39,508 nt of DNA from Escherichia phage RDN8.1 (MN414250.1), one strand, 5' to 3'. Counted from the stretch's first letter, positions 30,137-39,508 are shown. The notes: generated from the sequence alone by a model not told the origin. Made by a program: numbers and translations.

Positions 30137-33100
30137 ATGGCGACTCGTGGTATTCGCAATAACAATCCGGGTAATATCCGGGTAAGTAAGGACCAATGGG
30201 AAGGGATGACTGGAGATGATGGCGCATTCGTCACCTTCGATAGTCCAGAGTCTGGCGTCCGAGCTTTGGGTAAAAACCTGCTGTCCTACGGTCGCCAAGG
30301 TTATGACTCCATCGAGAAGATTATCAACCGATGGGCTCCTCCTAACGAGAACGACACTCAGGCTTATATTGACTCAGTGGTGGCTGCGACTGGTATTCCA
30401 GCTACACAGAGTCTCGACCTCTCGAACCCGGACACCCTGTCTTCTCTGGCGCAAGCTATCAGCTTCCATGAGACAGGCTCCCGGTACGACCCTGAAGTCT
30501 ATCAGCAGGGAGTCGCAAGAGCACTCAACGGTATCAGCCCAAAGACTCCACCAGTAAGCGCTAACGTATTTGACGCACTCACGGAAGGACTCAAGGCTAA
30601 ACCTAAAGTAGCTCTGGGTGAGAACCTTCCGACCGCTGCTGGTCTGAACATTGAGGGTCAAGCACCTGAAGCTCCCAACGAATCGTTCGGTGAGATGTTC
30701 TATAAGGCTACTGGCGAGACCATGCAGGAACGAGAGGACCGCTCTACGTGGTTCGGTTTCGGTGCGGCTACAGAAGCTGAAGTGAAGAACTCTATGGTCG
30801 GCGTGGCTATCCGCGCTGGTCAGACTGAGGACTCACTGGATGTCATTGGCGATGTGTTCAACCCAACCAGATGGAACAACCATAAGTGGTCTCGTGAGGA
30901 GCTGGACCAGATTCGTAACGCTGGGGTTCTGCCTCAGTATTACGGAGTCATTACTGGTGGCTCTCCTCAAAACCTGACCGAGCTTATTAACTTGGCGCTT
31001 GAGAACCAGAAGTTGGACCAAGAGAAGGCCAAGGCCGGGACTGGTGCTCAGTTAGCTGCTGGTGTGATTGGAGCTGGTGTGGACCCTCTGACATACGTTC
31101 CTATTGCTGGACAGGCTGGTAAGGGCGGTAAGCTGGTAAACAAGATGTTCACCGTGGCTGCTCAATCTGGAGCACTGGCTGGTGTGTCTGAGATGGCCCG
31201 TACCTCAGTGGCGGGTGGTGACGCTCATGTGGCTGAAGCTATCCTTGGTGGTGCTCTCTTCGGTGGTGGCATGACTGCTATCGCTGACGGTCTAGGAAGA
31301 GCCTTAGGTCGCAACACTAACGAGTTTGCTGGCCCCGCTACACGTCTGGAAGCGCGTGAGACTGCTCGTAACGTTGATGGTCAGGACCTGTCTCGTCTAC
31401 CTATTCAGGAAGGCGAGCAGACCTTCAGTCATCAAGGTGTTAAGTTCGCAGACGTTCCGAACGAGCCGGGCAGTGTACGACTGGAAGATGGTTCAATCCT
31501 GATTGGTGAGAACCCTCTGAACCCTAAGACACGTCAAGTCTTTGACGAAGTGATTGAGCCTGAACGTGCCGCTGCTGGTGTGAACCTTGGTGGACTTACC
31601 GAGATTGGCCTGAAGCTGCTTCGGTCTGAGAACCCTGAGATTCGTGGAGTAGCTGCTGACTTAGTACGTTCACCGACTGGTATGCAGTCTGGGGCCTCAG
31701 GTAAAATAGGGACAACTGCGTCGGACGTATTCGAGAGACTTCGTGCTGTGGACCATCGGTTCTACAACGACATCGACGATGCGGTTACTGAGGCACTAAA
31801 GGACCCGTACTTCCAGACAGCATTCTGGCGAGACTCTGGCGCATTCCGTCAGGACATCTACCAGCGTGTGTCTATGGCTATCGAAGATGGTAGCGGAAAC
31901 CTGAAGGCTGAACTTACTCCGGGAGAACTGAAAGTCTATGACCTACTGAAGAGCCAGTTTGACGCCAAGCGTGAGATGATGGAGAACCCAGCTATGTTTG
32001 GTCGTCCAGACGCTAAGTCTATCTTTCCGGGTAGCCGCTTCAAGGGAACCTACGTCCCTCATGTGTATAGCAAACAGATGAAGGAGCTGTATATCAATGA
32101 GCTGGGGAATCCAGAGGCGTTGCAGGAGGCCATCAAGAAGTCATGGTTGACCAGCTATGCGTCTCGACCTGAAGTCAAGAAACGCGTGGACGAGGCACTC
32201 TTAGAGGCTGACCCTACGTTGACTCCAGAGGGACTTGCTGCTGCGGTCGATAAATACGCAAACGATAAGGCTTACGGTATCTCTCACACCGAGCAGTTCG
32301 AACGTTCATCCGTAATGGAAGAGAACATCAACGGTCTGGTTGGTCTGGAGAACAACAGCTTCCTTGAGGCTCGTAACCTGTTCGATAGCGATATGTCAAT
32401 CGTCCTGCCTAACGGTCAGACCTTCAGTGTCAACAACCTGCGTGAGTGGGACATGGACAAGATTGTCCCGGCCTACAACCGTCGAGTTAATGGCGATATT
32501 GCTATCATGGCTGGTACAGGCAAAACCACGAAGGACATGAAGGACTTGGTTGAGACCATGATGAACAAGGCTGGGGATGACGGCAAGTTGAAAGGTGAGG
32601 TCTCGACCTTACGTGACACCTTGAAGATTCTCACTGGTCGTGCTAGACGTGATGGTGCTGACGATGCAGCCTTAGCTACTGTTATGCGCACAATGACGGA
32701 CCTATCGTTCTTCGCTAAGAATGCCTACATGGGTGTTCAGAACTTAACGGAGATTGGGGGTATGCTGGCCCGTGGTAACGTCCGGGCGATGCTGCACGGA
32801 ATCCCGATGTTCAGAGACCTAGCCTTCCGCAACAAGAAGGTGGGAGCCTCTGAGATTAAGGACCTGCATAACGTGGTCTTCGGTAAGGAACTTGACGACT
32901 CTATCCGTCCGTCTAAACAGGATGTCATTGACCGCCTTCGAGCGTACAGCGACCTGAGTAAACCAGTAGCTACCGCTTTAGGTTCCGCCAAGTATTACAC
33001 TGGGGAACTTGCGGTCCGCTCTCCGTTTACGAAGGTCCTGAACGGGACGACTAACTACCTGCTGGATGCTGGACGTCAAGGCTTCCTGTCTGACATCGTG

Positions 33101-34024
33101 GAGCACAGCCTGACCGGAAGTAAGCGTAAGTTTGATGACCGCTGGTTGAAGACCGCTGGTATCTCCGATGACCAATGGAAGGGCATCAAGTCCCTCATCC
33201 GTGAGTCAGTGACTCGTGGTCCAGACGGGAAGTACACCATCAAGGATAAGAAGGCGTTCAGTCAGGACCCAAGGGCTATGGACCTCTGGCGTATGGGTGA
33301 CACCATCGCTGATGAGACCCTGCTACGTCCGCACAAGCTGAGCAACATGGATGCCAAATCGTATGGCCCGGTGGCAAAGACTGTTCTTCAGTTCAAGAAC
33401 TTCGTTATCAAGTCCATCAACGGTCGAACCATGCGTACATTCTACAATGCTACCAAGAACAACCGGGCGATTGATGCTGCGTTATCCACGGTTATGTCTA
33501 TGGGCCTTGCTGGGGTGTACTATATGGCTCAGGCGCACATCAAGGCTTACGCGATGCAGGATGGTCGAGACAAGGAGTATCTGAAGCAAGCCCTCAACCC
33601 GACGATGATTGGCTATGCGGCCCTGTCCCGTAGCTCTCACCTCGGTGGGCCTCTTGGGGTCGCCAACATTCTGGGTGGAATCGCTGGGTATGAGGACACT
33701 AAGTTGCTCCGTTCGTCTATCCTCCCGCGTTCACCTACTGAGAAGCCTGAACGTGCCATTACCTATGGTGCTGCTAAGAGCGACCCGGTGATGAACGTGG
33801 TGGGGAACTTCCTTGAGCAGGTCCCGGCCTTTGGCTACGCTGCTAACGTCGGGGCTTCGGCTTATAACTTGGCTGGATACCTCAAGGCTGATACCCGTGT
33901 GAGCGAGCGGGACTACATGACCGGGATGTATAACACCTTCCGTGAGCTGGTCCCGAACGACCCGATTACTCAGAAGCTGCTGCTTGGAACCTTTGAGGAA
34001 CAGGGTATTCACATCAAAGACTAA
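30137..34024 (+). CDS. Internal virion protein D (T7 gp16 homologue) with non-T7 N-terminal domain of about 130 aa
   Basis: 1295 aa; from about residue 190 long blocks match recalled T7 gp16 (VRSPTGMQSGASGK, AYGISH..QF..SS..EENI.GLVG.ENNSFLEARNLFDSD, DAALS...SMGLAG); N-terminus (GIRNNNPGNIR...FHETGSRYD) does not. Confidence 0.92.
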   Translation: MATRGIRNNNPGNIRVSKDQWEGMTGDDGAFVTFDSPESGVRALGKNLLSYGRQGYDSIEKIINRWAPPNENDTQAYIDSVVAATGIPATQSLDLSNPDTLSSLAQAISFHETGSRYDPEVYQQGVARALNGISPKTPPVSANVFDALTEGLKAKPKVALGENLPTAAGLNIEGQAPEAPNESFGEMFYKATGETMQEREDRSTWFGFGAATEAEVKNSMVGVAIRAGQTEDSLDVIGDVFNPTRWNNHKWSREELDQIRNAGVLPQYYGVITGGSPQNLTELINLALENQKLDQEKAKAGTGAQLAAGVIGAGVDPLTYVPIAGQAGKGGKLVNKMFTVAAQSGALAGVSEMARTSVAGGDAHVAEAILGGALFGGGMTAIADGLGRALGRNTNEFAGPATRLEARETARNVDGQDLSRLPIQEGEQTFSHQGVKFADVPNEPGSVRLEDGSILIGENPLNPKTRQVFDEVIEPERAAAGVNLGGLTEIGLKLLRSENPEIRGVAADLVRSPTGMQSGASGKIGTTASDVFERLRAVDHRFYNDIDDAVTEALKDPYFQTAFWRDSGAFRQDIYQRVSMAIEDGSGNLKAELTPGELKVYDLLKSQFDAKREMMENPAMFGRPDAKSIFPGSRFKGTYVPHVYSKQMKELYINELGNPEALQEAIKKSWLTSYASRPEVKKRVDEALLEADPTLTPEGLAAAVDKYANDKAYGISHTEQFERSSVMEENINGLVGLENNSFLEARNLFDSDMSIVLPNGQTFSVNNLREWDMDKIVPAYNRRVNGDIAIMAGTGKTTKDMKDLVETMMNKAGDDGKLKGEVSTLRDTLKILTGRARRDGADDAALATVMRTMTDLSFFAKNAYMGVQNLTEIGGMLARGNVRAMLHGIPMFRDLAFRNKKVGASEIKDLHNVVFGKELDDSIRPSKQDVIDRLRAYSDLSKPVATALGSAKYYTGELAVRSPFTKVLNGTTNYLLDAGRQGFLSDIVEHSLTGSKRKFDDRWLKTAGISDDQWKGIKSLIRESVTRGPDGKYTIKDKKAFSQDPRAMDLWRMGDTIADETLLRPHKLSNMDAKSYGPVAKTVLQFKNFVIKSINGRTMRTFYNATKNNRAIDAALSTVMSMGLAGVYYMAQAHIKAYAMQDGRDKEYLKQALNPTMIGYAALSRSSHLGGPLGVANILGGIAGYEDTKLLRSSILPRSPTEKPERAITYGAAKSDPVMNVVGNFLEQVPAFGYAANVGASAYNLAGYLKADTRVSERDYMTGMYNTFRELVPNDPITQKLLLGTFEEQGIHIKD

Positions 34025-34042
34025 ACTATCACTATAGGAAAC
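34020..34042 (+). promoter_or_regulatory. Phage RNAP promoter (phi17-like), predicted +1 at 34037
   Basis: CTAAACTATCACTATAGGAAAC; overlaps gp16 stop. Confidence 0.65.
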
Positions 34043-34067
34043 GGGAGGCTTCGGTCTCCCTTTATTT
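34043..34067 (+). terminator. Stem-loop with UUCG loop plus U-tract just downstream of the phi17 start (terminator-like / 5' stabilising hairpin)
   Basis: GGGAGGC-TTCG-GTCTCCC then TTTATTT; 7-bp stem. Confidence 0.5.
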
Positions 34068-34084
34068 GACAACAGGAGGCATTA

Positions 34085-36559
34085 ATGGCAGACAACAAGA
34101 CCCTCATCAAGTATCCCACTGGTGAGACACAATATCGTATTCCATTCGATTACCTCGCAAGGTCTTTCGTAAAGGTAAGCCTTGAGGTCTCCACCGACTC
34201 CACTCTTAGTTATCCGCTGACACCGGGTAATGACTATCGGTTCCTGAATGCCACTACCATTGAAATCCTCATTCCGCAGGGTTCCTATGATGTGCTGCAA
34301 ATTCGTCGATTCACTGACACTACTCCTCTGGTCGGATTCCGCGATGGCTCAGTGCTGACAGCTAACGACCTTACAGTCTCTGAGCTTCAGGCAATCCATA
34401 TCGCAGAAGAAGGCCGTGACCAAACGTTAGAGCTGACCGAGAGCTACGTTGAGACTGCTGCTAATATCCGCGACGAAGTTAAGGAGATGCTGGAGGAAAT
34501 GCGGGATGACTTAATCATTCAGCGTGTGTATAAGGATAGCTTTGAGAAGGGTCAGACACTCAACCTTCCCGGCGAGTCCCTGCGACTGGAAGCTACTAAC
34601 ATCTACTATGAGTGGACGGGTAGCTTCCCTAAAGTAGTACCTGCTGGCTCTACACCTGATACGACTGGTGGTGTGACTGCTGGTGCGTGGCGTATGGTAG
34701 GTAACAGCAATATGGAAGCGTTCATGCTCAGTGGGTCTTACCATGTGTTCTCAACCATAGATGACCTGAAGTCCCTTAAGATTAACCCTTCGGTGACAGT
34801 CAACATGCAGGTAGGCTCCAGAGCGATGACCCTTAAGCTGGTTCAGGCAGCTGGTAAGTTCTACAACAAGCGTGTCTACTGGGACATAGTTGCAGCGGAA
34901 AACCCGAACACGTTGAGCGTTCAGCTTGTTAATGGGCTGTGGGCTGCCATGGTAGTGGAAGACGAGCTGTACCCTGCGGTCTTTGGATGGGGCGAGAAGG
35001 ATGACCCTGCTGCTAATGCCGCTGCTTACCATAGAGCATGTGCTGTGGCTGAGGCAAACCCTAACGTCCACACCATTCGTCTACACGCTGGCGCCTTCCG
35101 CAGTGATGGTATAGTGGCTCAGGTTGCACGTAGACGCTTCCGGTTCACTGGGGCTGGCTGGGATAATACCTTTATCCTCTCTGAGTCCTCTGACATCTCG
35201 TTCCACCACAAAGGGTTCAACGAGTCTAACCCAGCACTGGACAAGCGATACTTCCAGCAGATTGTCGATGGCTTCACCGTAGACGGTCAGATGGGTACAC
35301 GTAAAGTCCAAGCCGCTCAACGTACACTCTCCACAGTCCACTACGCCGAGCTTGGCTATAAGTCTGTAAACCATAGGGTGTCACAGGTGGATATTTGTGG
35401 ACTAGTTGTCAAGTGGTACGGTATGACTGGTGCTGGTGTGTATGACGGTGTGTGGTCACAGCATGGCCTACGAGTACGCTACAACTCTATCAAGCTGAAT
35501 GGCTATATTGGTGGAGCGCCTAATCAAATCAACACCATGATTGGTGGCTTCCGTACCAAGCTTATAGCCCCTGCTAAGGCTGGTGACACCACGATTCAGG
35601 TAGAGAACCTGCGCAACGGTCAGACCTACGACATCCTAGAGGTTGGCGGTGGTACACTTGAGGCTCCACGCATAAAGTCAAGAACAGGGAACACCATCAC
35701 ACTGTTCGCCCCTCTGGAGTACGACCACACGGTTAACGCAGTGGTTAGACTTCCGGTTGTTGGGACTGAGGTTCAGGGTACTCTTGAGGTTGGTATCATC
35801 TACATTGCTGACGCTGAGGCTACAACCGTTCATGGCATCTACTCAGAGGAATCTAAGTTCTACCTTTCTGGACTTCTTCAAGGTTGTGAGATTCACGGCA
35901 ACAGTATTGCGGAAGCAAACCCTACTGTACAGGTTGACTCTAACGTAGACCCTAGAAGTCACATCCGAATTGTGTCTAACAACACGTACTTCCCAGTGAC
36001 AATCGCAGTGGCCGATGAGACCGGAGCAGTAAACAACAGGCTTGACCTCAAGCGCTTCCCTAACATCGAGATTAAGGGCAACACACGCGCTCAGAACTCA
36101 ATCTGGGTAAATGGTGTATACTCCTTTAGTTCTCTCCGAGTATACCGAACGTATGACTCTGGGATGAGCGATGTGTCAATGACCACTATGGAATTCGACG
36201 GTCTATCTGCTCAGTTGGCTGGCGGAGCTGTAAGTGATGCCCTCCTGCTCGCATCGTTCCCAGCAACAAGGCCGTATAAATGGGATGGCTACACCTTTGA
36301 CCTTACGGCTACTTATCGTCGAGTTGGTAAGATGGGTGGCGGCACACTCAAACGTGCTGGTCACGCGCTAACCGATGGTACGACCCACGATGTGAACGTT
36401 CAACGCTACGTCTCAACTGGCAGTACTTGGTCTGAGGCTGGCGTAGACCTTCTGTTCGGTGCCACTGGTACCCGCGCGTCTGTTACTGCTCGAGGTGAGG
36501 CTAGTGGTGCTTGGCCTACGAGTATGTCAATCAGAGGTATCATCACCCACGCAAACTGA
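34085..36559 (+). CDS. Tail fibre / tailspike: T7 gp17-like N-terminal adaptor domain fused to a large non-T7 C-terminal domain (putative receptor-binding or polysaccharide-degrading domain)
   Basis: 824 aa; N-terminal about 150 aa (YRIPFDYLARSFVKV, FRDGSVLTANDL, LQAIHIAEEGRD) match recalled T7 gp17; remainder shows no T7 similarity. Confidence 0.88.
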   Translation: MADNKTLIKYPTGETQYRIPFDYLARSFVKVSLEVSTDSTLSYPLTPGNDYRFLNATTIEILIPQGSYDVLQIRRFTDTTPLVGFRDGSVLTANDLTVSELQAIHIAEEGRDQTLELTESYVETAANIRDEVKEMLEEMRDDLIIQRVYKDSFEKGQTLNLPGESLRLEATNIYYEWTGSFPKVVPAGSTPDTTGGVTAGAWRMVGNSNMEAFMLSGSYHVFSTIDDLKSLKINPSVTVNMQVGSRAMTLKLVQAAGKFYNKRVYWDIVAAENPNTLSVQLVNGLWAAMVVEDELYPAVFGWGEKDDPAANAAAYHRACAVAEANPNVHTIRLHAGAFRSDGIVAQVARRRFRFTGAGWDNTFILSESSDISFHHKGFNESNPALDKRYFQQIVDGFTVDGQMGTRKVQAAQRTLSTVHYAELGYKSVNHRVSQVDICGLVVKWYGMTGAGVYDGVWSQHGLRVRYNSIKLNGYIGGAPNQINTMIGGFRTKLIAPAKAGDTTIQVENLRNGQTYDILEVGGGTLEAPRIKSRTGNTITLFAPLEYDHTVNAVVRLPVVGTEVQGTLEVGIIYIADAEATTVHGIYSEESKFYLSGLLQGCEIHGNSIAEANPTVQVDSNVDPRSHIRIVSNNTYFPVTIAVADETGAVNNRLDLKRFPNIEIKGNTRAQNSIWVNGVYSFSSLRVYRTYDSGMSDVSMTTMEFDGLSAQLAGGAVSDALLLASFPATRPYKWDGYTFDLTATYRRVGKMGGGTLKRAGHALTDGTTHDVNVQRYVSTGSTWSEAGVDLLFGATGTRASVTARGEASGAWPTSMSIRGIITHAN

Positions 36560-36600
36560 GGACAATTCGGTCAAGGATGACCATTACAATAGGAGACTTT

Positions 36601-36798
36601 ATGTTACAGATTGACTTCAAGAATGAGGTACTTAAAGCCTCACCTATAGTCGGGACCGCAGCGGCTGATGGTGCCAGTCGGTTCTTTTTCGGCCTTACGC
36701 TGAACGAGTGGTTTTACGTCGCTGCTATCGCTTACACTGTGGTACAGATTGGTGTGCTCATTTACAAGACTATCAAGAGTGGAGGTGCCACCACATGA
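36601..36798 (+). CDS. Class II holin (T7 gp17.5 homologue)
   Basis: ATG after AGGAG; DFKNEVLKASPIVGT...FFGLTLNEWFYVAAIAYTVVQIG matches recalled T7 holin. Confidence 0.85.
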   Translation: MLQIDFKNEVLKASPIVGTAAADGASRFFFGLTLNEWFYVAAIAYTVVQIGVLIYKTIKSGGATT

Positions 36799-37058
36799 CG
36801 CAAATGGACTTAGAGAAGTTCCTCTTAATGCTGGACACTGAACGTGCCCGACTCATGCTGCAAGACCTGCGGGATGACTCCAAGCGCTCACCCCAGTTGT
36901 ACAACGCCATTGAGAAGCTTCTGGCCAGACACAACTTTGTGTTGAGTAAGGTGTCTGTAGACGAGAAGCAGCTGGCAGACATGGAGGCCCTCAACGCGGA
37001 GTATGACAAAGTGCTCTCAGCTACTGAGGATAACGACACCGGGTATGGTGTACAGTAA
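36795..37058 (+). CDS. Small terminase subunit (T7 gp18 homologue)
   Basis: ATG overlaps holin stop; FLLMLDTERARLMLQDL..SKRSPQLYNAIEKLL matches recalled T7 gp18. Confidence 0.85.
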   Translation: MTQMDLEKFLLMLDTERARLMLQDLRDDSKRSPQLYNAIEKLLARHNFVLSKVSVDEKQLADMEALNAEYDKVLSATEDNDTGYGVQ

Positions 37059-37061
37059 GTG

Positions 37062-37100
37062 TTAGACTCAAGGTCATCTATTGGTGGCCTTTATGATTAA
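37062..37100 (+). promoter_or_regulatory. RNase III-like processing hairpin (T7 R18.5 position)
   Basis: TTAGACTCAAGGTCATCTATTGGTGGCCTTTATGATTAAC; third copy of the motif. Confidence 0.4.
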
Positions 37101-37150
37101 CACTAACGTAGGTGACTCTACGTGAATTCTTTTAAAACAGGAGGGCAACT

Positions 37151-37594
37151 ATGCTCGAACTTTTACGTAAAGCGCTCCCGTGGTTAGCGGCAGGACTCCT
37201 GTTCTGTTCAGGCTACTGGGTGGCAGACACAAAGTGGGAGGCGAAAGTAAGCAATGAGTACATCACTAAATTACAAGCAGAGGACAGAACGCGCACTTCG
37301 GTACAGCGAGAGGTGTCACGTATTGCAGCGGACTACCAAGACAAGCTGTCCGCGCTGGAAGGCTCTACTGATAGGATTATTGCTGACCTTAACCGCGATA
37401 ACAAGCGGTTGCGCATCAGAGTCCAACCTACCAGTGGAACGGTCCAAAGTGACGGTCGATGCGTCATTGATGGTTACGCCGACCTTGATGAGCGAGATGC
37501 TAAACGTCTTATCGCCATCGGACTGAAGGGCGACGAGTGGATTAAAGCCTTGCAGGGGACCATCAGGGCCTTGCAGCAGGAGAAGGAGAAATGA
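37151..37594 (+). CDS. Rz-like i-spanin (T7 gp18.5 homologue)
   Basis: 147 aa; N-terminal TM LPWLAAGLLF; EGSTDRIIADLNRDNKRLRIRV, DERDAKRLIA match recalled T7 Rz. Confidence 0.85.
   Translation: MLELLRKALPWLAAGLLFCSGYWVADTKWEAKVSNEYITKLQAEDRTRTSVQREVSRIAADYQDKLSALEGSTDRIIADLNRDNKRLRIRVQPTSGTVQSDGRCVIDGYADLDERDAKRLIAIGLKGDEWIKALQGTIRALQQEKEK
37254..37526 (+). CDS. Rz1-like o-spanin lipoprotein embedded in Rz in the +1 frame; start uncertain (possibly TTG about 37323)
   Basis: Embedded ORF with hydrophobic segment ALLIGLLLTLTAI and lipobox-like TSGC. Confidence 0.45.
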   Translation: MSTSLNYKQRTERALRYSERCHVLQRTTKTSCPRWKALLIGLLLTLTAITSGCASESNLPVERSKVTVDASLMVTPTLMSEMLNVLSPSD

Positions 37595-38031
37595 TGCTCA
37601 GTGATTCGTATGTCTATGATGAGTCCAGTAAGTCTGGCCTGAAGTCCCTGCGTTCTGGTAAGGATGTGGGGTGTGTGGGAAACCACGGGTATTATCAGGT
37701 AGGAACTCGACGTCATGGACTCCTGCTGGCCCATAGAGTCGTCTGGGAGCTAACCAACGGTCCTATACCAGAAGGTATGGAGATTGACCATATTGACCGC
37801 TGCCGGACTAACAACAGGCTTGACAACCTCCGGCTAGTTACTTCAAGCGAGAACTCCTGCAACACCTCAGGACATTCTGACTCAAAGACTGGAGTTAAGA
37901 ACATATCGTTCCATCAGAATGGCTACGCTATCGAGGTCATGCGTAAGGGAGTCCGTATGCGAACAACACGTCCTACTTTAGAGGAGGCTATCTCTGTCCG
38001 GGACCTAATGCTGGAGGGACTATATGTCTAA
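37591..38031 (+). CDS. HNH endonuclease inserted between Rz and terminase
   Basis: AGGAG RBS; [41 protein letters not shown]; paralogue of 8043..8525. Confidence 0.8.
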
Positions 38032-39508
38032 GAAAACACCTGCTGAAAGACAGGCTGAAATGACCCAAAGGATGAGGGACGACTTCGTGTTCTTCATCTT
38101 TGTTCTCTGGAAAGCGCTGAGCCTTCCGGTTCCAACTAGATGTCAGATAGATATGTGTAAGAAGCTGGCTGCTGGCGATAACCGACGATTCATCCTTCAG
38201 GCGTTCCGAGGTATTGGCAAATCGTTTCTGACCTGTGGTTTCGTGGTCTGGAAATTATGGAACAACCCAGACTTAAAGTTCATGATTGTGTCGGCCTCAA
38301 AGGAGCGAGCCGATGCGAACTCCATCTTCATCAAGCGAATCATCGACCTAATGCCTCAGCTTCAGGAACTCAAACCTAAGCAGGGACAGCGAGATGCGGT
38401 TATCAGCTTCGACGTAGGGCCAGCCAAGCCAGACCACTCACCTTCGGTTAAGTCCGTTGGTATCACTGGTCAGTTGACTGGTAGTCGTGCTGACATCCTG
38501 ATTGCCGATGACGTGGAGGTTCCGAACAACTCAGCGACTCAGGCCGCACGAGACCGTCTGTCAGAGCTTGTGAAAGAGTTCGACGCTATTCTGAAGCCGG
38601 GAGGTACAATCATCTATCTGGGTACTCCTCAGAACGAGATGACTTTGTATCGTGAGCTGGAAGGCCGTGGGTACACCACTACTATCTGGCCTGCTCGTTA
38701 TCCACGCGACAGGAAGGACTGGCAGTCTTACGGCGACCGTCTGGCGCCGATGCTTCAGGCGGAGCTGGAAGAGGACCCTGAGTCCTTCTACTGGCGTCCG
38801 ACCGATGAAGTTCGATTCGACGATACTGACCTGAAGGAACGCGAGCTGTCCTACGGTAAAGCTGGCTTCGCTCTACAGTTCATGCTTAACCCGAACCTGA
38901 GTGATGCCGAGAAGTACCCTCTGAAGCTCCGTGACCTTATCGTAGCAGACTTGGACCCAGCGTCCAGCCCAATGGTCTACCAATGGTTGCCGAACCCTCA
39001 GAACAAGCGTGAGGACGTTCCTAACGTTGGACTCATGGGTGACTCATACCACACGTATCAGACTGTAGGTTCTGCCTTCAGTTCGTACACCCAGAAGATT
39101 CTGGTCATAGACCCTAGTGGTCGTGGCAAGGATGAAACTGGCTATGCGGTACTGTACCAACTCAACGGCTACATCTTCGCTATGGAAGTTGGCGGTATGC
39201 GTGGTGGTTATGAAGACTCTACGCTGGAAGCCTTGGCTAAGATTGGTCGTAAGTGGAAGGTCAACGAGTACGTCATTGAGGGTAACTTCGGTGATGGTAT
39301 GTACCTTGAGCTATTCAAGCCTGTAGCGGCCCGTATCCATCCTGCGGCTGTAACTGAAGTGAAGAGTAAGGGTCAGAAAGAACTCCGCATCTGTGACGTT
39401 CTGGAGCCTATCATGGGGTCTCACAGACTTATCGTTAACGCTGCTGCCATAGTACAAGACTACCAGTCGGCCTCTGATAAGGATGGTGTTCGTAACCCTA
39501 TCTACTCT
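38024..39508 (+). CDS. Large terminase subunit (T7 gp19 homologue), N-terminal part; runs off the window end and continues at 1..639
   Basis: ATG 38024 overlaps HNH stop; [13 protein letters not shown] (Walker A), [55 protein letters not shown] match recalled T7 gp19. Confidence 0.95.
39152..39508. repeat. Exact copy of window positions 1..357 (assembly / circular-permutation overlap inside the terminase gene)
   Basis: Direct comparison of both ends; reading frame preserved across the join. Confidence 0.95.

What the first reader, a model, noticed from the sequence alone, without database searches (positions are those of the whole stretch)
34550..36559. Tail fibre carries a large non-T7 C-terminal domain
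The first roughly 150 aa match the T7 gp17 adaptor domain, but the remaining roughly 670 aa have no T7 similarity. Modular tailspikes with enzymatic receptor-binding domains are typical of T7-like phages infecting capsulated hosts. This domain determines host range and may be a depolymerase.
Basis: inference. Interest (0 to 1): 0.5.

Follow-up and report, generated by a model that had tools for sequence, protein, structure and literature searches.

The report
Podophage tailspike with swapped beta-helix domain
This is the single tail spike gene of a T7-like (Kayfunavirus) coliphage: a conserved tail-attachment head joined to a rare, divergent beta-helix module that most likely binds and cuts a host surface sugar polymer. 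This build is ordinary for such phages, although this version has no close characterised relative.

Summary
ORF 34085..36559 (+) encodes an 824-aa gene-17 product. Only aa 13-116 resemble T7 gp17, and the finding's interval (aa 156-824) has no T7 similarity.

The protein has these layers:
- a T7-type adaptor
- a Tail_spike_N domain (aa 150-206), shared with Ackermannviridae tailspikes
- a roughly 610-aa receptor-binding module with no hit in Pfam, NCBIfam or PDB sequences

The module belongs to a small family that sits on T7-type, P22-type and myovirus anchors. The one tested member, AV101 TSP4 (34% identity), clears E. coli O159 lawns. So "modular enzymatic tailspike" is supported, but an O-antigen is a likelier target than a capsule. 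Activity, chemistry and serotype are untested.

The window's copy is the most divergent family member. A sibling contig shares the whole gene at 98.6% nucleotide identity while its flanks are only 80-88% identical, which points to recent cassette exchange.

Verdict: an ordinary feature and a new member of a known kind.

The parts
34025..34042 (+). Phage RNA-polymerase promoter core (ACTATCACTATAGGAAAC) directly upstream of gene 17
   Evidence: Nine + strand copies of this core occur in the window with up to 3 mismatches, against 0.02 expected from shuffles. The sequence was read.
34043..34060 (+). Short GC-rich hairpin (GGGAGGC-UUCG-GUCUCCC) followed by a U-run, in the 5' leader. Significance is doubtful.
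   Evidence: MFE -12.8 kcal/mol but z-score only -1.06; 28 of 200 shuffles fold as well.
34074..34079 (+). Ribosome-binding site AGGAGG, 5 nt before the ATG
   Evidence: Read directly from the sequence.
34085..36559 (+). Gene 17: tail spike, 824 aa, the only receptor-binding protein gene in the window. It lies between gp16 (30137..34024) and the holin gene (36601..36798).
   Evidence: ORF list. Neighbours identified by Pfam and by annotated relatives.
34085..34432 (+). aa 1-116: T7 gp17-type N-terminal adaptor, which docks the spike to the tail
   Evidence: PF03906 matches aa 13-115, E 4.4e-18. T7 gp17 (7boz_a) aligns to aa 13-116. Nucleotide similarity to Kayfunavirus SFPH2 runs up to 34422.
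34433..34531 (+). aa 117-149: linker between the adaptor and Tail_spike_N. Nucleotide similarity to other Kayfunaviruses ends at its start (34422-34426).
   Evidence: blastn piece boundaries. Protein-level similarity to solved podophage tail spike structures 9vvr_A and 9lna_A continues through it. This stretch lies outside both structure models.
34532..34702 (+). aa 150-206: Tail_spike_N domain (CBA120 TSP1/gp66 type), a conserved junction domain shared among podo- and myovirus tailspikes
   Evidence: PF18668 E 1.1e-18. PDB sequence hits to CBA120 TSP1/3/4 and others cover only this stretch. Fifteen of 25 family members carry it.
34739..34954 (+). aa ~219-290: small alpha/beta domain, the first part of the exchangeable receptor-binding module. 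Its boundaries are approximate.
   Evidence: All family members become alignable here whatever their N-terminal anchor. Secondary structure from the model; pLDDT is low in two loops.
34970..36130 (+). aa ~296-682: capping helix (aa 308-324) plus a right-handed parallel beta-helix, the presumed glycan-binding and catalytic body. Acidic residues invariant across the family are D360, D386, D436, E568, E588 and D654.
36131..36556 (+). aa ~683-824: C-terminal beta-sandwich domain with no confident structural relative. Presumed role is trimer stabilisation or distal glycan contact.
33951..36800 (+). Block shared at 98.6% nucleotide identity with a second Kayfunavirus contig whose flanks are only 80-88% identical. 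This is the recently exchanged cassette: end of gp16, promoter, gene 17 and holin.
   Evidence: Pairwise alignment of the window with L004.

Best explanation
Gene 17 encodes the tailspike of a Kayfunavirus (a T7-like podophage of Enterobacteriaceae).

Proposed mechanism:
- The N-terminal ~116 aa form the T7 gp17-type adaptor that plugs the spike into the tail. By analogy with T7 and with solved podophage spikes, there are six trimers per virion.
- A Tail_spike_N domain (aa 150-206) acts as a conserved junction.
- The distal ~610 aa form a small alpha/beta domain, a long right-handed parallel beta-helix and a terminal beta-sandwich. Together they bind a serotype-specific surface polysaccharide of the host, most likely an O-antigen.
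- The module cleaves that polymer endolytically, so the virion can work its way down to the outer membrane. This module sets host range.

Shown here: gene structure, domain layout, fold, family membership, mobility of the module, and purifying selection.

Inferred: trimeric state, glycan cleavage by this particular protein, hydrolase versus lyase chemistry, which residues are catalytic (candidates D360, D386, D400, D436, E568, E588), and the target serotype.
For: - Backbone: about 88% nucleotide identity to E. coli Kayfunaviruses over 24 kb. Gene order is gp16, gene 17, holin, gp18, Rz.
- Domains: PF03906 and PF18668 both score above their cut-offs.
- Tested homologue: AV101 TSP4 shares 34% identity over aa 152-815, E 5e-112. 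Purified TSP4 gives translucent zones only on O159 E. coli and partly inhibits infection (PMC10791037).
- Mobility: about 25 homologues at 35-46% identity carry T7-type, Tail_spike_N-only, P22 head-binding or other anchors.
- Conservation: a dense set of invariant polar residues lies in the beta-helix (R350, D360, H375, D386, R413, Y420, K426, H430, D436, R463, K470, Y474, E568, E588).
- Selection: 23 synonymous against 7 non-synonymous codon differences to the sibling contig.
Against: - There is no sequence match to any Pfam, NCBIfam, CAZy-type or PDB family for aa 216-824, even with a family profile. The enzyme class therefore rests on fold alone.
- The best fold matches share only 7-14% identity and include non-cleaving enzymes (mannuronan C5-epimerases) and adhesins.
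- The window's protein replaces residues that the other 24 family members keep: D346Q, D348A, D379N, R381S, R383P, H389Y, E317R, R320A, R323E. If any of these is catalytic, this copy could be inactive.
The monomer model says nothing about trimer interfaces.
- At 34-46% identity, no serotype can be transferred from relatives.
Confidence: 0.75

Rival explanations
1. The target is a capsule (K-antigen) rather than an O-antigen. This is what the first reader implied: a capsule depolymerase of a phage infecting capsulated hosts.
For: Kayfunavirus includes capsule-specific spikes; some relatives' gene-17 products are named 'lyase' and others carry Peptidase_S74. Fold matches include Klebsiella and Acinetobacter capsule depolymerases and the K5 lyase.
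Against: The only tested family member targets an O-antigen, O159. Four of the 25 aligned members carry P22-type head-binding anchors, at least one of them from E. coli; from general knowledge, that architecture is typical of O-antigen tailspikes. Another relative sits in a phage isolated on STEC O121. Fold matches do not discriminate between the two targets.
Confidence: 0.2
2. This is a binding-only beta-helix spike. The fold is kept for receptor recognition, but this divergent copy has lost catalysis.
For: The query alone changes near-invariant acidic residues in the way classic knock-outs do: D346Q, D348A, D379N. It has 48 private deviations at near-invariant columns, the most in the family.
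Against: The changed positions sit in loops of the first one or two helix rungs and the cap helix. They include a charge swap (E317R with R323E), which looks more like a rebuilt salt-bridge or subsite cluster than an active site (inference). Seven acidic residues (D360, D386, D436, E568, E588, D654, D734) and two histidines (H375, H430) that are invariant in all 25 sequences are retained. The gene is under purifying selection.
Confidence: 0.1
3. The module modifies the glycan (epimerase or esterase type) rather than cleaving the chain.
Against: The protein itself has no SGNH or esterase domain. The tested homologue produces clearing zones typical of depolymerisation. Identity to the epimerases is only 10-14%.
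Confidence: 0.04
4. This is a T7-like fibrous tail fibre that binds LPS core or a protein receptor and has no enzymatic body.
For: The N-terminal adaptor is of T7 gp17 type.
Against: There is no similarity to T7 gp17 beyond aa 116. The model is a globular beta-helix, not a coiled-coil shaft with a tip domain.
Confidence: 0.01

Closest known systems
Agtrevirus AV101 tailspike TSP4 (WJJ54146.1), E. coli O159-specific
   Same: The receptor-binding module is homologous from Tail_spike_N to the C-terminus: 34% identity, aa 152-815, E 5e-112. It is the only family member with experimental data, namely translucent zones on O159 lawns and partial inhibition of infection.
   Different: TSP4 is 1092 aa and has an Ackermannviridae branching/anchor N-terminus instead of a T7 adaptor. 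It belongs to a four-spike complex on a myovirus. At 34% identity the glycan specificity is probably different. The window's protein lacks several residues that TSP4-like members keep.
Escherichia phage ST31 (Kayfunavirus) tail fibre protein ARW56875.1
   Same: Same genus, same locus and same three-layer architecture (T7 adaptor, Tail_spike_N, this module). Identity is 39% over 99% of the length.
   Different: Identity is only 39%. ST31's receptor is unknown. Nucleotide similarity within the gene is confined to an 80-nt island at 34346-34425.
CBA120 tailspikes TSP1-4 (PDB 4oj5, 5w6p/6w4q, 5w6f/6nw9, 5w6h)
   Different: There is no sequence similarity in the beta-helix (9-12% identity). The anchors differ. 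Catalytic residues cannot be transferred.
T7 gp17 tail fibre
   Same: The N-terminal tail-docking domain is shared (aa 13-116), as is the gene position after gp16.
   Different: From general knowledge, T7 gp17 continues as a coiled-coil shaft with a small tip domain and has no enzyme. Here the distal 700 aa are unrelated to it.
Solved podophage tail spikes with this adaptor plus Tail_spike_N (PDB 9vvr_A 'Tail spike protein', 9lna_A 'Tail fibers protein')
   Same: Aa 4-212 align at E 1e-54 to 1e-56, so the adaptor and the junction domain are shared.
   Different: Their distal bodies show no sequence similarity to this one.

Membership tests
T7 gp17-type tail fibre/spike adaptor (Pfam PF03906) | N-terminal domain scoring above Pfam's gathering cut-off | tested here: met
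   65.9 bits against a cut-off of 25.2, aa 13-115. T7 gp17 chain 7boz_a aligns to aa 13-116.
T7 gp17-type tail fibre/spike adaptor (Pfam PF03906) | Gene lies between gp16 (internal virion protein D) and the class II holin in an Autographiviridae genome | tested here: met
   and annotated relatives.
Tail_spike_N junction domain (Pfam PF18668, CBA120 TSP1/gp66) | Domain hit above the gathering cut-off | tested here: met
   67.5 bits against a cut-off of 25, aa 150-206.
Beta-helix tailspike depolymerases | Right-handed parallel beta-helix central domain | tested here: met
Beta-helix tailspike depolymerases | Homotrimeric assembly | not testable with these tools
   Only monomer prediction was available.
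Beta-helix tailspike depolymerases | Pair or triad of catalytic carboxylates in a groove or at a subunit interface | tested here: inconclusive
   Invariant D360, D386, D436, E568, E588, D654 and D734 exist. Their spatial arrangement could not be examined because no coordinates were available. The query lacks D346, D348 and D379, which all other members keep.
Beta-helix tailspike depolymerases | Demonstrated cleavage of host polysaccharide | not testable with these tools
   This needs a halo or spot assay and product analysis. It has been shown only for the 34%-identical AV101 TSP4.
AV101 TSP4 / ST31 gp17 / Ro121c4YLVW tail spike receptor-binding module family | End-to-end sequence homology of the module | tested here: met
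   E 5e-112 to TSP4. There are 23 hits with E at most 1e-104 covering 89-100% of the module, and 17 representative clusters with E at most 1e-30.
AV101 TSP4 / ST31 gp17 / Ro121c4YLVW tail spike receptor-binding module family | Same glycan specificity (O159) | not testable with these tools
   Identity of 34% and altered conserved positions make identical specificity unlikely. Experiment is required.
Known carbohydrate-enzyme sequence families with a beta-helix (Pfam Beta_helix PF13229, Pect-lyase_RHGA_epim PF12708, GH28 and others) | Sequence-profile match | tested here: not met
   No such hit at E up to 1 in the query or in any of the 25 family members, and none in NCBIfam. Only very distant partial relatives of aa ~564-770 carry PF12708.
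Endosialidase-type spikes with a C-terminal intramolecular chaperone (Peptidase_S74, PF13884) | C-terminal S74 domain | tested here: not met
   Absent here, though present in other Kayfunavirus spikes.

The most novel reading that the evidence does not exclude
The AV101-TSP4-like module, of which this is the most divergent member, may be an unclassified family of glycan-cleaving enzymes. It has no Pfam model, no solved structure and no CAZy-type sequence link. On this reading, the window's copy, with its rebuilt charged cluster at aa 317-389, targets an enterobacterial O- or K-antigen for which no phage enzyme is yet known.
Probability: 0.3. Interest if true: 0.4.

Novelty: new member of a known kind. 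Interest (0 to 1): 0.25.

Why it matters
The spike decides which strains this phage can infect. A new specificity variant is useful for phage-therapy cocktails, serotyping reagents and engineered host-range swaps.

The locus also shows module exchange at two depths. One is an old domain-level transfer among podoviruses, myoviruses and P22-like prophages. The other is a recent whole-gene cassette transfer between two Kayfunavirus backbones.

None of this changes what is understood about tailspikes. The value is as a catalogue entry and a candidate for biochemical characterisation of a family that has no solved structure.

Tried and rejected
- Megablast of the gene against 50,697 phage records found no match, so no close DNA relative is deposited there.
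- Pfam, NCBIfam and PDB sequence searches, with the single sequence and with a 25-sequence profile, found nothing for aa 216-824.
- A scan of one genome per bacterial species (genome contigs) with family patterns gave 52 pattern matches, none of them a relative.
- IMG/VR gave only 8 loci, at 37-44% identity.
- The hairpin in the 5' leader is not better than shuffled sequence, z -1.06. It is not claimed as a terminator or an RNase III site.
- The E. coli tailspike modularity paper PMC10408124 mentions none of the relatives.
- Mapping conserved residues onto the model was not possible, because model coordinates are not exposed to the scripting tool.
- I considered transferring the O159 specificity from AV101 TSP4 and rejected it: 34% identity is too low.
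- I considered a chaperone-containing endosialidase-type spike and rejected it: there is no S74 domain.

Full report
**Observation.** The window is a Kayfunavirus-type (T7-like, Autographiviridae) genome. Bases 10000-34000 match E. coli phages 6925, GA2A, LM33_P1, CLB_P1 and others at about 88% nucleotide identity over about 90% of the query.

The finding lies in ORF 34085..36559 (+), 824 aa. Base 34550 is codon 156 and 36559 is the last base of the stop codon, so the interval is aa 156-824.

The gene has an AGGAGG site 5 nt upstream of the ATG. It is preceded by a phage-promoter core at 34025-34042, one of nine + strand copies of ACTATCACTATAGG-type sequence against 0.02 expected by chance. 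It sits between gp16 (30137..34024) and the class II holin, gp18, Rz and an HNH gene, as in annotated relatives.

**T7 similarity.** Pfam PF03906 matches aa 13-115 (E 4.4e-18). Full-length T7 gp17 (7boz_a, 553 aa) aligns only to aa 13-116. The statement that a large C-terminal part has no T7 similarity is correct. The detectable T7-like part is nearer 116 aa than 150 aa.

**Anatomy.** PF18668 Tail_spike_N covers aa 150-206 (E 1.1e-18). It is shared with CBA120 TSP1, TSP3 and TSP4 and with solved podophage tail spike structures such as 9vvr_A and 9lna_A.

Beyond about aa 216 there is no hit in Pfam, NCBIfam or PDB sequences. This holds for the single sequence, for a 25-sequence profile, and for each family member scanned on its own.

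An AlphaFold2 model of aa 146-824, built on the family alignment, has mean pLDDT 83.3 and pTM 0.75. It shows:
- the Tail_spike_N strands
- a small alpha/beta domain (aa ~219-290)
- a capping helix (aa 308-324)
- a long run of short strands typical of a parallel beta-helix (aa ~330-680)
- a terminal beta-sandwich (aa ~683-824)

A separate model of aa 560-824 (pLDDT 81.6) matched only beta-helix/beta-roll segments, at Z no higher than 8.3. The last ~140 aa therefore have no confident structural relative.

**Relatives.** The receptor-binding module belongs to a small family.
- A search with the module alone found 23 proteins (E at most 1e-104), of which 22 are 38-46% identical and one is a 99% identical protein from a single other contig.
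- An exhaustive HMMER scan of 1.84 billion representatives found 17 clusters at E no higher than 1e-30.
- IMG/VR holds 8 loci at 37-44% identity.
- A pattern scan of one genome per prokaryotic species found none.

Members carry different N-terminal anchors. These include T7 adaptor plus Tail_spike_N (ST31-like), Tail_spike_N alone, the P22 head-binding domain PF09008 (at least one in an E. coli genome) and others.

In deposited phages the module occurs in:
- Kayfunavirus ST31 (39% identity, full length)
- myovirus PD205
- Agtrevirus AV101
- Phapecoctavirus Ro121c4YLVW, isolated on STEC O121
- Kuttervirus LPST94
- a Vibrio podophage

The AV101 protein is TSP4 (WJJ54146.1). It aligns at 34% identity over aa 152-815, E 5e-112. 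Purified TSP4 forms translucent zones only on O159 E. coli and partly inhibits infection. The same paper already noted its similarity to ST31, Ro121c4YLVW and LPST94, whose receptors are unknown (PMC10791037).

**Mosaic borders.**
- Against SFPH2, nucleotide similarity runs from gp16 to window 34422 (about codon 113) and resumes at 36566, seven bases after the stop codon.
- Against phage 6925 and ST31, similarity stops at the start codon, except for an 80-83-nt island at 34344-34426. That island encodes the conserved end of the adaptor and is a plausible homologous-recombination site.
- Against the sibling Logan contig (ERR10744275_3892), window 33951-36800 is 98.6% identical. The flanks are 87.6% (31085-33950) and 79.6% (36801-39500) identical. 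Within gene 17 there are 32 nucleotide differences, with 23 synonymous and 7 non-synonymous codon changes.

So the whole gene-17 cassette has moved recently between two diverged Kayfunavirus backbones. The module itself has been shuffled among unrelated phage types over a much longer time.

**Mechanism.** The best-supported reading is a classical tailspike. The adaptor docks the spike to the tail. The beta-helix binds and cleaves a serotype-specific surface polysaccharide, which lets the virion reach the outer membrane.

The fold, the tested homologue and the P22-type anchors in prophages favour an O-antigen target. A capsule cannot be excluded.

Candidate functional residues are the invariant polar cluster in the helix: R350, D360, H375, D386, R413, Y420, K426, H430, D436, R463, K470, Y474, E568 and E588.

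The window's protein is the family outlier. It has 48 private changes at columns where at least 22 of the 24 homologues agree. Among them is a cluster of charge changes at aa 317-389: E317R, R320A, R323E, D346Q, D348A, D379N, R381S, R383P and H389Y.

These positions lie in the cap helix and the loops of the first rungs. I read them as a rebuilt salt-bridge or subsite cluster linked to a changed specificity. Without coordinates, a loss of catalysis cannot be ruled out, and that rival is kept at about 0.1.

Hydrolase versus lyase chemistry is undecided. The fold matches include both, and also non-cleaving epimerases.

**Comparison with known systems and novelty.** Architecture, fold and modularity are those of known tailspikes. 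The family itself has already been noticed in the literature through AV101 TSP4.

What is new is limited to three points:
- a very divergent member, at most 46% identical to anything except one sibling contig
- the lack of any Pfam model or solved structure for the family
- the clear two-level mosaic signature

This is a new member of a known kind and of modest interest.

Noticed in passing
window 33951-36800 versus L004 (Logan ERR10744275_3892): The end of gp16, the promoter, all of gene 17 and the holin gene are 98.6% nucleotide-identical to a second Kayfunavirus contig. The flanking gp16 body (87.6%) and the gp18-Rz-HNH-terminase region (79.6%) are much more diverged. This is the signature of a recent whole-cassette exchange.
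   Followed up: yes
window 34344-34426: An 80-83-nt island encoding the conserved end of the adaptor (aa ~87-114) keeps 82-84% identity to phages 6925 and ST31, whereas the rest of gene 17 has no nucleotide similarity to them. It is a likely recombination hotspot for spike swapping.
   Followed up: partly
window 37591-38031 (+): A 146-aa HNH_3 homing-endonuclease-type gene (PF13392, E 1.8e-21) sits between Rz and the large terminase. It is absent at this position in phages 6925 and SFPH2. The 37250-38000 region is the least conserved against the sibling contig, at 54-68% identity.
   Followed up: partly
window 739, 3431, 6492, 9482, 18292, 21507, 22542, 26759, 34025 (+): There are nine copies of a phage-RNAP promoter core, ACTATCACTATAGG, all on the + strand (0.02 expected by chance). 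They give the phage's promoter consensus.
   Followed up: no
window 35033-35251 (aa 317-389 of gene 17): The window's spike alone replaces a set of charged residues that are invariant or nearly so in the 24 homologues: E317R, R320A, R323E, D346Q, D348A, D379N, R381S, R383P and H389Y. The structural meaning is unresolved.
   Followed up: partly
proteins P0150-P0156, matching aa ~564-770 of gene 17: The distal half of the module has weak relatives (E 4e-24 to 2e-6) in other proteins. These carry a PF12708 pectate-lyase-like helix, a tail-collar fibre N-terminus or, in one fragment, an SGNH esterase domain. This hints that the C-terminal part is itself a separately mobile sub-module.
   Followed up: partly
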